Assembly (NCBI RefSeq): GCF_036507355.1
Contig: NZ_AP027877.1
Length of the DNA stretch: 64,000 nucleotides
Origin: Escherichia coli
Lineage (GTDB): Bacteria > Pseudomonadota > Gammaproteobacteria > Enterobacterales > Enterobacteriaceae
Direction: 5' to 3' (one strand)
Below the pieces are notes generated by a model, which made no database searches, was not told the DNA's origin, and saw only the letters and a list, made by a program, of their open reading frames with translations. The translations under genes were made by a program, and so were the position numbers. How positions within the stretch are numbered: position 1 is the first letter of the stretch; the number at the start of each line of letters is the position of its first letter. This document shows positions 63,738 through 63,846 of this stretch, piece after piece.

Positions 63738-63846
63738 AAAAAAAGCCCGGACGACTGTTCGGGCTTGTCTTTTTATATGTTGGAAAATCAGTGGCAATGC
63801 AATGGCCCAACAGAAAATAAAATCTGTGACAATAAAGGCATATAAC
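63738..63846 (-). ncRNA. micC: MicC small regulatory RNA (Hfq-dependent, targets ompC)
   Basis: Reverse complement of 63738-63846 reads GTTATATGCCTTTATTGTCACAGATTTTATTTTCTGTTGGGCCATTGCATTGCCACTGATTTTCCAACATATAAAAAGACAAGCCCGAACAGTCGTCCGGGCTTTTTTT, matching the remembered MicC sequence, with intrinsic terminator. Confidence 0.85.
63741..63776. terminator. bidirectional intrinsic terminator shared by pfo (+) and micC (-)
   Basis: Stem aagcccg/cgggctt with T-run after on + strand and A-run before (U-run for the minus transcript). Confidence 0.7.

What the first reader, a model, noticed from the sequence alone, without database searches (positions are those of the whole stretch)
63738..63846. MicC sRNA antisense-adjacent to pfo, sharing one bidirectional terminator
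The 109-nt MicC sequence is recognisable on the minus strand directly downstream of pfo. The same GC stem (aagcccg/cgggctt) is flanked by an A-run and a T-run, so it can terminate both convergent transcripts. MicC falls below any ORF-based annotation.
Basis: partly seen in the sequence, partly recalled or inferred. Interest (0 to 1): 0.35.

Follow-up and report, generated by a model that had tools for sequence, protein, structure and literature searches.

The report
Known MicC sRNA with shared terminator
This is the well-known E. coli small regulatory RNA gene micC, sitting tail-to-tail with the pyruvate:flavodoxin oxidoreductase gene ydbK (pfo/nifJ) and sharing one terminator hairpin with it, so the finding is correct but ordinary.

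Summary
The observation and the interpretation both hold. Rfam's MicC model (RF00121) matches window 63849..63729 on the minus strand at 125.3 bits (gathering score 90, E 1.8e-20, full length). The transcribed sequence is identical to E. coli K-12 micC (b4427) except for a U8 rather than U9 tail.

The plus-strand ORF 60184-63708 is YdbK (1168/1174 identical to K-12; TIGR02176, 1630 bits). It ends 28 nt before the MicC 3' end.

The hairpin at 63743-63766 is flanked by A8 on one side and GTCTTTTTAT on the other, so it reads as an intrinsic terminator on both strands. It is the only such site in the 64 kb, and none appeared in 30 random sequences. Published K-12 3'-end mapping (TRS, PMC10687069) puts the ydbK mRNA end at 1437194, which is window 63773, in the fourth U after this hairpin. 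The two RNAs therefore overlap by about 37 nt.

In 30 related genomes the MicC-side tail is U7-U10 everywhere. The ydbK-side U5 tract occurs only in Escherichia. Everything here is already known and curated in K-12. Interest is low.

The parts
63737..63846 (-). micC gene (MicC sRNA, 110 nt here; 5' G at 63846, last U of the tail at 63737)
   Evidence: Rfam RF00121 at 125.3 bits, E 1.8e-20. Identical to K-12 b4427 apart from a U8 versus U9 tail.
63832..63846 (-). MicC 5' seed (nt 1-15, GUUAUAUGCCUUUAU), which pairs with the ompC mRNA leader
   Evidence: 15 contiguous Watson-Crick pairs with the K-12 ompC leader at -29..-15. The extended duplex is -27.6 kcal/mol against -14.5 +/- 2.9 for 1000 shuffles, and none reached it.
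63778..63812 (-). Central MicC stem-loop (nt 35-40 paired with nt 64-69, large loop)
   Evidence: Part of the Rfam consensus structure. 4 of the 6 pairs show changes on both sides across 31 distinct sequences, and 87% of cells are paired.
63743..63766 (.). Shared terminator hairpin AAGCCCGGAC-GACT-GTTCGGGCTT, used on both strands
   Evidence: Plus strand: 10 pairs including one G-U. Minus strand: 7 pairs, an A.C mismatch, then 2 pairs. The stem is invariant in 32 sequences, with a CG/UA covarying apical pair.
63737..63744 (-). MicC poly-U tail (U8). On the plus strand it is the A-tract 5' of the hairpin.
   Evidence: U7-U10 in all 33 sequences compared.
63767..63776 (+). ydbK-side terminator tail GUCUUUUUAU. 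The inferred ydbK mRNA 3' end is at 63773.
   Evidence: K-12 3' terminus with dominant position 1437194 (peak 1437193-1437202) in TRS Supplementary Data 2 and 3 of PMC10687069, mapped to the window through the alignment.
60184..63708 (+). ydbK (pfo/nifJ), pyruvate:flavodoxin/ferredoxin oxidoreductase, 1174 aa, stop TAA at 63706-63708
   Evidence: ORF list. 1168/1174 identical to K-12 YdbK. TIGR02176 at 1630.6 bits against a cut-off of 911.
63853..63881 (-). Inferred micC promoter: -10 TATTCT (63853-63858), -35-like TATACT (63876-63881), 17-bp spacer, G+C-rich discriminator GCGCGG
   Evidence: Position relative to the K-12 annotated 5' end. TATTCT and the upstream block AAAATAAAAATTATAC are conserved across 31 genomes. 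This is inference and was not tested. The simple consensus scan did not call it.

Best explanation
The feature is the micC gene of an E. coli strain. MicC is an Hfq-dependent, trans-acting small RNA of about 110 nt. It is transcribed from its own promoter on the minus strand. Its 5' end base-pairs with the ompC mRNA leader and blocks translation of the porin. Its 3' end is a Rho-independent terminator made of a G+C-rich hairpin and a U8 tail. The convergent gene ydbK (pfo/nifJ) stops 28 nt short of the MicC 3' end. Its transcript runs through the same inverted repeat, folds the complementary hairpin and ends in the GUCUUUUU tract on the far side. One DNA palindrome therefore terminates both transcripts, and the two RNAs are complementary over their last 37 nt or so. 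What is shown here: the sequence identity, the family membership, the synteny, the hairpin and tails on both strands, and the complementarity to ompC. What is taken from the literature: the K-12 ydbK 3' end and the curated K-12 micC boundaries. What is inferred: that the same ends are used in this strain, and that the ydbK end arises by intrinsic termination rather than by trimming.
For: - MicC covariance model at 125.3 bits against a gathering score of 90, full length.
- Identical to curated K-12 micC except for tail length.
- The region is present in 5412 of 5426 complete E. coli genomes.
- YdbK identity is established, and ompN follows in the closest genomes.
- The seed-ompC duplex is -27.6 kcal/mol, and 0 of 1000 shuffles were as good.
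- The central stem covaries and the terminator stem is invariant.
- The plus-strand fold is -23.5 kcal/mol (z -3.4), with a terminator call on the plus strand. The MicC fold has the hairpin plus U8.
- This is the only hairpin flanked by A-rich and T-rich tracts in the 64 kb, and none appeared in 30 random sequences.
- The published K-12 ydbK 3' terminus lies at 1437194, 7 nt past the stem and inside the U5 tract.
- nifJ converges 20-39 nt from the hairpin in all 27 sequences (24 of the 30 scanned loci, plus K-12, CFSAN029787 and the window) with enough flank.
Against: - There are no transcript-end data for this strain.
- One E. coli Term-seq study (PMC7815308) lists no 3' end for either gene, probably because both are poorly expressed in those media. 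MicC-side end mapping therefore rests on the curated annotation.
- The ydbK-side tail is short (U5) and separated from the stem by GUC.
- Outside Escherichia that tail degenerates to GUCAAUUUAUU or GUCAUAAAUA, so two-way use is not a conserved property of the locus.
- In E. coli proper the MicC-sense hairpin carries an A.C mismatch (-11.8 against -16.3 kcal/mol in other genera).
Confidence: 0.9

Rival explanations
1. The hairpin terminates only MicC. On this view ydbK transcription reads through, or is stopped further on by Rho. The mapped ydbK 3' end is then made afterwards by 3'-to-5' exonucleases that trim back to the stable hairpin.
For: The ydbK-side U-tract is short and interrupted. RNA-seq-based end mapping cannot tell termination from processing. 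In Citrobacter and Salmonella the tail is poor, yet nifJ sits in the same position.
Against: The mapped end lies 7 nt past the stem, inside the U-run, which is the usual position for intrinsic termination. The ydbK-sense hairpin is the stronger of the two in E. coli (-15.8 against -11.8 kcal/mol). Escherichia specifically carries the two substitutions that create U5.
Confidence: 0.1
2. Termination at this site in vivo depends mainly on head-on collisions between converging RNA polymerases. This is the model proposed for overlapping bidirectional terminators found by SEnd-seq. The hairpin and tails would act as pause elements rather than as two independent intrinsic terminators.
For: The architecture (convergent genes, a short overlap, a hairpin between an A-tract and a U-tract) fits the class described in bioRxiv 10.1101/2022.10.23.513370.
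Against: The MicC side is a canonical strong intrinsic terminator (U8). micC and ydbK are both weakly and conditionally expressed, so collisions should be rare. I could not consult the SEnd-seq site list.
Confidence: 0.08
3. The match is a decayed or non-functional MicC-like remnant, or a chance terminator that resembles the family.
For: None, beyond the absence of expression data for this strain.
Against: Full-length model match at E 1.8e-20. Base-for-base identity to the functional K-12 gene. A conserved promoter block. An intact seed complementary to ompC.
Confidence: 0.01

Closest known systems
MicC sRNA of E. coli K-12 (micC, b4427; Rfam RF00121; Chen, Zhang, Blyn & Storz 2004, cited from PMC5745476 and PMC1489923)
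   Same: Same sequence over the whole transcript. Same neighbours, with ydbK convergent and ompN divergent in the closest genomes. Same 28-nt gap to the ydbK stop codon. Same seed and same terminator hairpin.
   Different: The tail is U8 rather than U9. There is one promoter-region substitution about 22 nt upstream of the start (T here, G in K-12). The U8 form is itself common: exact 79-nt matches occur in at least 910 complete E. coli genomes, including O157:H7.
Bidirectional (two-way) intrinsic terminators between convergent genes; overlapping bidirectional terminators of Ju, Li & Liu 2019 (cited through)
   Same: Convergent transcripts, one G+C-rich palindrome, an A-tract on one side and a T-tract on the other, and 3' ends that overlap by a few tens of nucleotides.
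   Different: One partner is a small RNA whose terminator also serves as its Hfq-binding 3' module. The two tails are unequal (U8 against GUC-U5). I could not check whether this pair is in the published SEnd-seq list.
micF-ompC locus (the sister porin/sRNA pair)
   Same: An sRNA gene transcribed divergently from a porin gene, repressing a different porin through its 5' end (PMC5745476; micF lies next to ompC).
   Different: micF is a different family (not RF00121) and was not examined here for a shared terminator.

Membership tests
MicC sRNA (Rfam RF00121) | Scores at or above the family's gathering threshold on the covariance model, full length | tested here: met
   125.3 bits against 90, model 1-123 of 123, E 1.8e-20; repeated on the whole window.
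MicC sRNA (Rfam RF00121) | Conserved 5' seed complementary to the ompC mRNA leader | tested here: met
   15 contiguous pairs with the K-12 ompC leader at -29..-15. Duplex -27.6 kcal/mol, and 0 of 1000 shuffles reached it. The ompC leader of this strain itself is not in the window.
MicC sRNA (Rfam RF00121) | Genomic position between ompN (divergent) and ydbK/nifJ (convergent) | tested here: met
   ydbK is confirmed in the window. The window ends before ompN, but ompN follows in K-12 and in a 99.6%-identical genome. nifJ is convergent in all 24 of the 30 scanned loci with enough flank.
MicC sRNA (Rfam RF00121) | Rho-independent terminator with a long poly-U tail (the Hfq-binding 3' module of this class of sRNA) | tested here: met
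   Hairpin plus U8. U7-U10 in all 33 sequences. Hfq binding itself was not tested.
MicC sRNA (Rfam RF00121) | Expressed as a discrete RNA of about 109 nt that represses OmpC | not testable with these tools
   Known for K-12 from the literature (PMC5745476). No expression data for this strain.
Bidirectional intrinsic terminator | Convergent transcription units with one G+C-rich palindrome flanked by an A-tract and a T-tract | tested here: met
   It is the unique site of this kind in the 64 kb, with 0 in 30 random sequences.
Bidirectional intrinsic terminator | Mapped RNA 3' ends on both strands, each just past the hairpin | tested here: inconclusive
   The ydbK end at K-12 1437194 comes from published TRS tables. 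The MicC end comes only from the curated K-12 annotation. No MicC or ydbK end appears in the Adams 2021 Term-seq tables. Nothing is available for this strain.
Bidirectional intrinsic terminator | Factor-independent termination in both orientations | not testable with these tools
   Needs in vitro transcription or read-through reporters.

The most novel reading that the evidence does not exclude
The last 37 nt or so of the ydbK mRNA and of MicC are perfectly complementary. This could let the oxidative-stress-inducible ydbK transcript and MicC influence each other, through duplex formation and RNase III cleavage, titration of MicC's Hfq-binding 3' module, or polymerase collisions. Pyruvate:flavodoxin oxidoreductase expression would then be coupled to porin control. 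The Escherichia-specific substitutions fit this idea: AUAAAUUGAC became AUAAAAAGAC, creating the ydbK-side U5, and a T-to-C change weakens only the MicC-sense hairpin. They would represent a lineage-specific retuning of that relationship.
Probability: 0.07. Interest if true: 0.4.

Novelty: already known. Interest (0 to 1): 0.08.

Why it matters
It matters little beyond annotation hygiene. MicC is a textbook porin-regulating sRNA, and its position next to ydbK is curated in E. coli K-12. Automated RefSeq annotation leaves it out of other E. coli genomes, so flagging it fills a real gap in those gene lists. The shared terminator is a tidy example of a small RNA whose functional 3' module also serves as the terminator of a converging mRNA. 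The ydbK-side U-tract being confined to Escherichia is a small evolutionary footnote.

Tried and rejected
- The simple consensus scan called the terminator only on the plus strand. That is a limit of the scan, not a negative result. The fold and the Rfam structure both show the MicC-side hairpin.
- The same scan's count for the region (1 terminator-like site against 1.4 expected) is not significant by itself, so I wrote a stricter two-sided scan.
- The scan did not call the micC promoter either. The promoter in my parts list is inferred from conservation.
- RNAalifold on 32 sequences predicted only the terminator. The central stem had to be tested explicitly.
- Term-seq tables of PMC7815308 held no micC or ydbK ends.
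- Chen et al. 2004 (PMC522180) and Ju et al. 2019 (PMC6814526) are not held. I could not read the original end mapping of MicC or check the SEnd-seq list.
- Low-scoring Leu and Thr leader hits at the same place are just the terminator hairpin matching the attenuator part of those models, far below their thresholds. I rejected them.
- The 63-aa minus-strand ORF 63619-63810 overlaps micC and the ydbK 3' end. It is a mechanical ORF with no support, and I rejected it.
- The 21-nt seed used to fetch relatives makes conservation of MicC nt 1-21 circular, so I do not count it as evidence.

Full report
**Observation.** The region 63700-63900 was read directly. On the minus strand, 63846 to 63737 reads GUUAUAUGCCUUUAUUGUCAC...AAGCCCGAACAGUCGUCCGGGCUUUUUUUU. 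An Rfam scan of the last 6 kb with permissive filters gave MicC (RF00121) at 63849..63729, minus strand. The score was 125.3 bits against a gathering score of 90, E 1.8e-20, covering model positions 1-123 of 123. A whole-window scan at gathering thresholds gave the same hit. The other hits at this place (Leu and Thr leaders, 20-25 bits against thresholds of 50-55) are only the terminator hairpin matching the attenuator part of those models.

**Identity with the curated gene.** The 701 bases at the window end match 5412 of 5426 complete E. coli genomes, best at 99.6%, so the window is E. coli. The K-12 MG1655 record annotates micC (b4427) at 1437121..1437231. It lies between ompN (divergent) and ydbK (convergent), with 28 nt between the micC 3' end and the ydbK stop codon. 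An alignment of the window, K-12 and a 99.6% relative shows the transcribed region is identical except that the window has 8 T in the tail where K-12 has 9. There is also one substitution about 22 nt upstream of the start. Transferred to the window, micC is 63846 (5' G) to 63737 (last U), 110 nt. The U8 form is not unusual: an exact 79-nt match across the terminator occurs in at least 910 complete E. coli genomes, including O157:H7 strains.

**Neighbour.** The plus-strand ORF 60184-63708 (1174 aa) is 1168/1174 identical to K-12 YdbK. It matches the equivalog model TIGR02176, pyruvate:ferredoxin (flavodoxin) oxidoreductase, at 1630.6 bits against a cut-off of 911. RefSeq calls it nifJ, and 'pfo' is a fair name for it. 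The window ends at 64000, before ompN. In K-12 and in the close relative CFSAN029787, ompN follows.

**Anatomy and function of the RNA.**
- Nucleotides 1-15 of MicC form 15 contiguous Watson-Crick pairs with the K-12 ompC leader at -29 to -15 from the AUG.
- The extended duplex is -27.6 kcal/mol. For 1000 shuffles of the MicC 5' end the mean was -14.5 +/- 2.9, and none reached the observed value. This fits the published mechanism, in which MicC represses OmpC by pairing with the 5' untranslated region of ompC mRNA (PMC5745476).
- I fetched 30 loci from other species with the 21-nt 5' end as an exact pattern: Citrobacter, Salmonella enterica subsp. arizonae and diarizonae, several Escherichia species, Superficieibacter, Pseudocitrobacter and a Raoultella MAG. 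Conservation of nt 1-21 is therefore circular and is not counted.
- Downstream of the seed, the central stem (window 63807-63812 with 63778-63783) keeps pairing in 87% of cells, with changes on both sides at 4 of its 6 pairs. The structure as a whole beats all 500 column shuffles and all slid controls.
- The terminator stem is invariant apart from a CG/UA covarying apical pair.
- Upstream, a TATTCT hexamer at -12..-7, a G+C-rich discriminator and an invariant AAAATAAAAATTATAC block that contains a -35-like TATAC(T/A) at 17-bp spacing are conserved in 31 genomes. That is my inferred promoter. It was not called by the simple consensus scan and was not tested.

**The shared terminator.**
- The palindrome lies at 63743-63766. 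On the plus (ydbK) strand it folds into 10 pairs, one of them G-U. It is preceded by A8 and followed by GUCUUUUUAU. The 81-nt context folds at -23.5 kcal/mol, z = -3.4.
- On the minus strand the same DNA gives MicC's hairpin (7 pairs, an A.C mismatch, 2 pairs) followed by U8.
- A stricter two-sided scan of my own (perfect 7-bp stem with at least 4 G/C, at least 6 A of 8 before it and at least 6 T of 8 after it) found this site and no other in the 64 kb. It found none in 30 first-order Markov random sequences.
- Experimental support comes from the TRS study of transcript termini in E. coli K-12 (PMC10687069). Supplementary Data 2 and 3 list a minus-strand 3' terminus assigned to ydbK with dominant position 1437194 (peak 1437193-1437202). 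The predicted hairpin there is AAGCCCGGACGACUGUUCGGGCUU, at -16.9 kcal/mol.
- I checked the coordinate convention against the thrL attenuator row of the same table. Through the alignment, position 1437194 corresponds to window 63773, the fourth U of the U5 run and 7 nt past the stem.
- With MicC ending at 63737, the two RNAs overlap by about 37 nt (38 in K-12). The claim that one stem serves both convergent transcripts is thus supported for K-12 and inferred for this strain.
- A second E. coli Term-seq study lists no end for either gene, probably for lack of expression. I could not read Chen et al. 2004 or the SEnd-seq paper of Ju et al. 2019.

**How general the two-way use is.**
- nifJ ends 20-39 nt from the hairpin in all 27 sequences with enough flank to see it (24 of the 30 scanned loci, plus K-12, CFSAN029787 and the window). 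The MicC-side tail is U7-U10 in all 33 sequences.
- The opposite tail varies. It is GUCUUUUUAU (6 U in the first 9) in most Escherichia sequences (GUCUUCUUAU, 5 of 9, in Escherichia sp. MOD1-EC7003), GUCAAUUUAUU (4 of 9) in Citrobacter and Salmonella, and GUCAUAAAUA (3 of 9) in Superficieibacter.
- E. coli proper also carries a T-to-C change in the 3' arm. It weakens the MicC-sense hairpin (-11.8 against -16.3 kcal/mol) but leaves a G-U pair in the ydbK-sense hairpin (-15.8).
- A good ydbK-direction terminator therefore looks like an Escherichia refinement rather than a family trait. This is a minor observation, and I have not seen it stated elsewhere in the papers I could read.

**Rivals.**
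- The ydbK end could be made by exonuclease trimming back to the hairpin rather than by termination. The position of the end inside the U-run argues against this but does not exclude it.
- Termination might depend on polymerase collisions, as proposed for overlapping bidirectional terminators. The low, conditional expression of both genes and MicC's canonical terminator make that unnecessary.
- A non-functional remnant is excluded by the identity to K-12.

**Verdict.** The feature is a known, curated sRNA gene with a known neighbour. The shared terminator is real on sequence grounds and is backed by published end mapping in K-12. Novelty: already known. Interest: low.

Noticed in passing
window 63715-63731 (+): A second small A+T-rich hairpin, TGGATAA-gga-TTATCCA (7 pairs), lies in the 28-nt spacer between the ydbK stop codon and the MicC 3' end. 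It is kept in the Escherichia species. Some Citrobacter show it as GTTAA-tac-TTAAC, that is with A/T swaps on both arms, but it is weak or absent in Salmonella and other Citrobacter. Its function is unknown. TTATCCAAT also resembles a DnaA box at 7 of 9 positions (a comparison from memory).
   Followed up: partly
window 34817-34968 (+) and 35528-35591 (+): The whole-window Rfam scan also found a sok antitoxin RNA (RF01794, 104.9 bits against 59), implying a hok/sok-type toxin locus. About 560 nt downstream it found the sRNA RydC (RF00505, 92.5 bits against 48).
   Followed up: no
window 63737-63744: The MicC poly-U tail length is polymorphic in E. coli. It is U8 here and in at least 910 complete genomes including O157:H7. 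It is U9 in K-12 and in the genomes that are otherwise closest over 701 nt. It ranges from U7 to U10 across genera.
   Followed up: partly
window 63867 (about -22 from the micC start): There is a single substitution in the micC promoter spacer relative to K-12 (T here and in CFSAN029787, G in K-12). It lies between the inferred -35 and -10 elements, and its effect is unknown. A published study reports strain-dependent MicC expression in clinical isolates (PMC7177473, seen only as a title and abstract).
   Followed up: no
window 63729-63849, and the same place in RefSeq E. coli records: RefSeq/PGAP annotation of E. coli genomes carries no feature for micC. The table shows 'none' under the match, or only nifJ and ompN on either side. 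The curated K-12 record does carry it. This is a systematic annotation gap rather than biology.
   Followed up: yes
window 63777-63786 (minus strand, MicC nt 71-80) and loci L003-L032: The single-stranded stretch just 5' of the MicC terminator is AUAAAAAGAC in most Escherichia sequences (AUAAGAAGAC in Escherichia sp. MOD1-EC7003) but AUAAAUUGAC in Citrobacter and Salmonella. The two substitutions create the U5 tract on the ydbK strand. They also change the A/U composition of what is usually the Hfq-contact region of the sRNA.
   Followed up: partly
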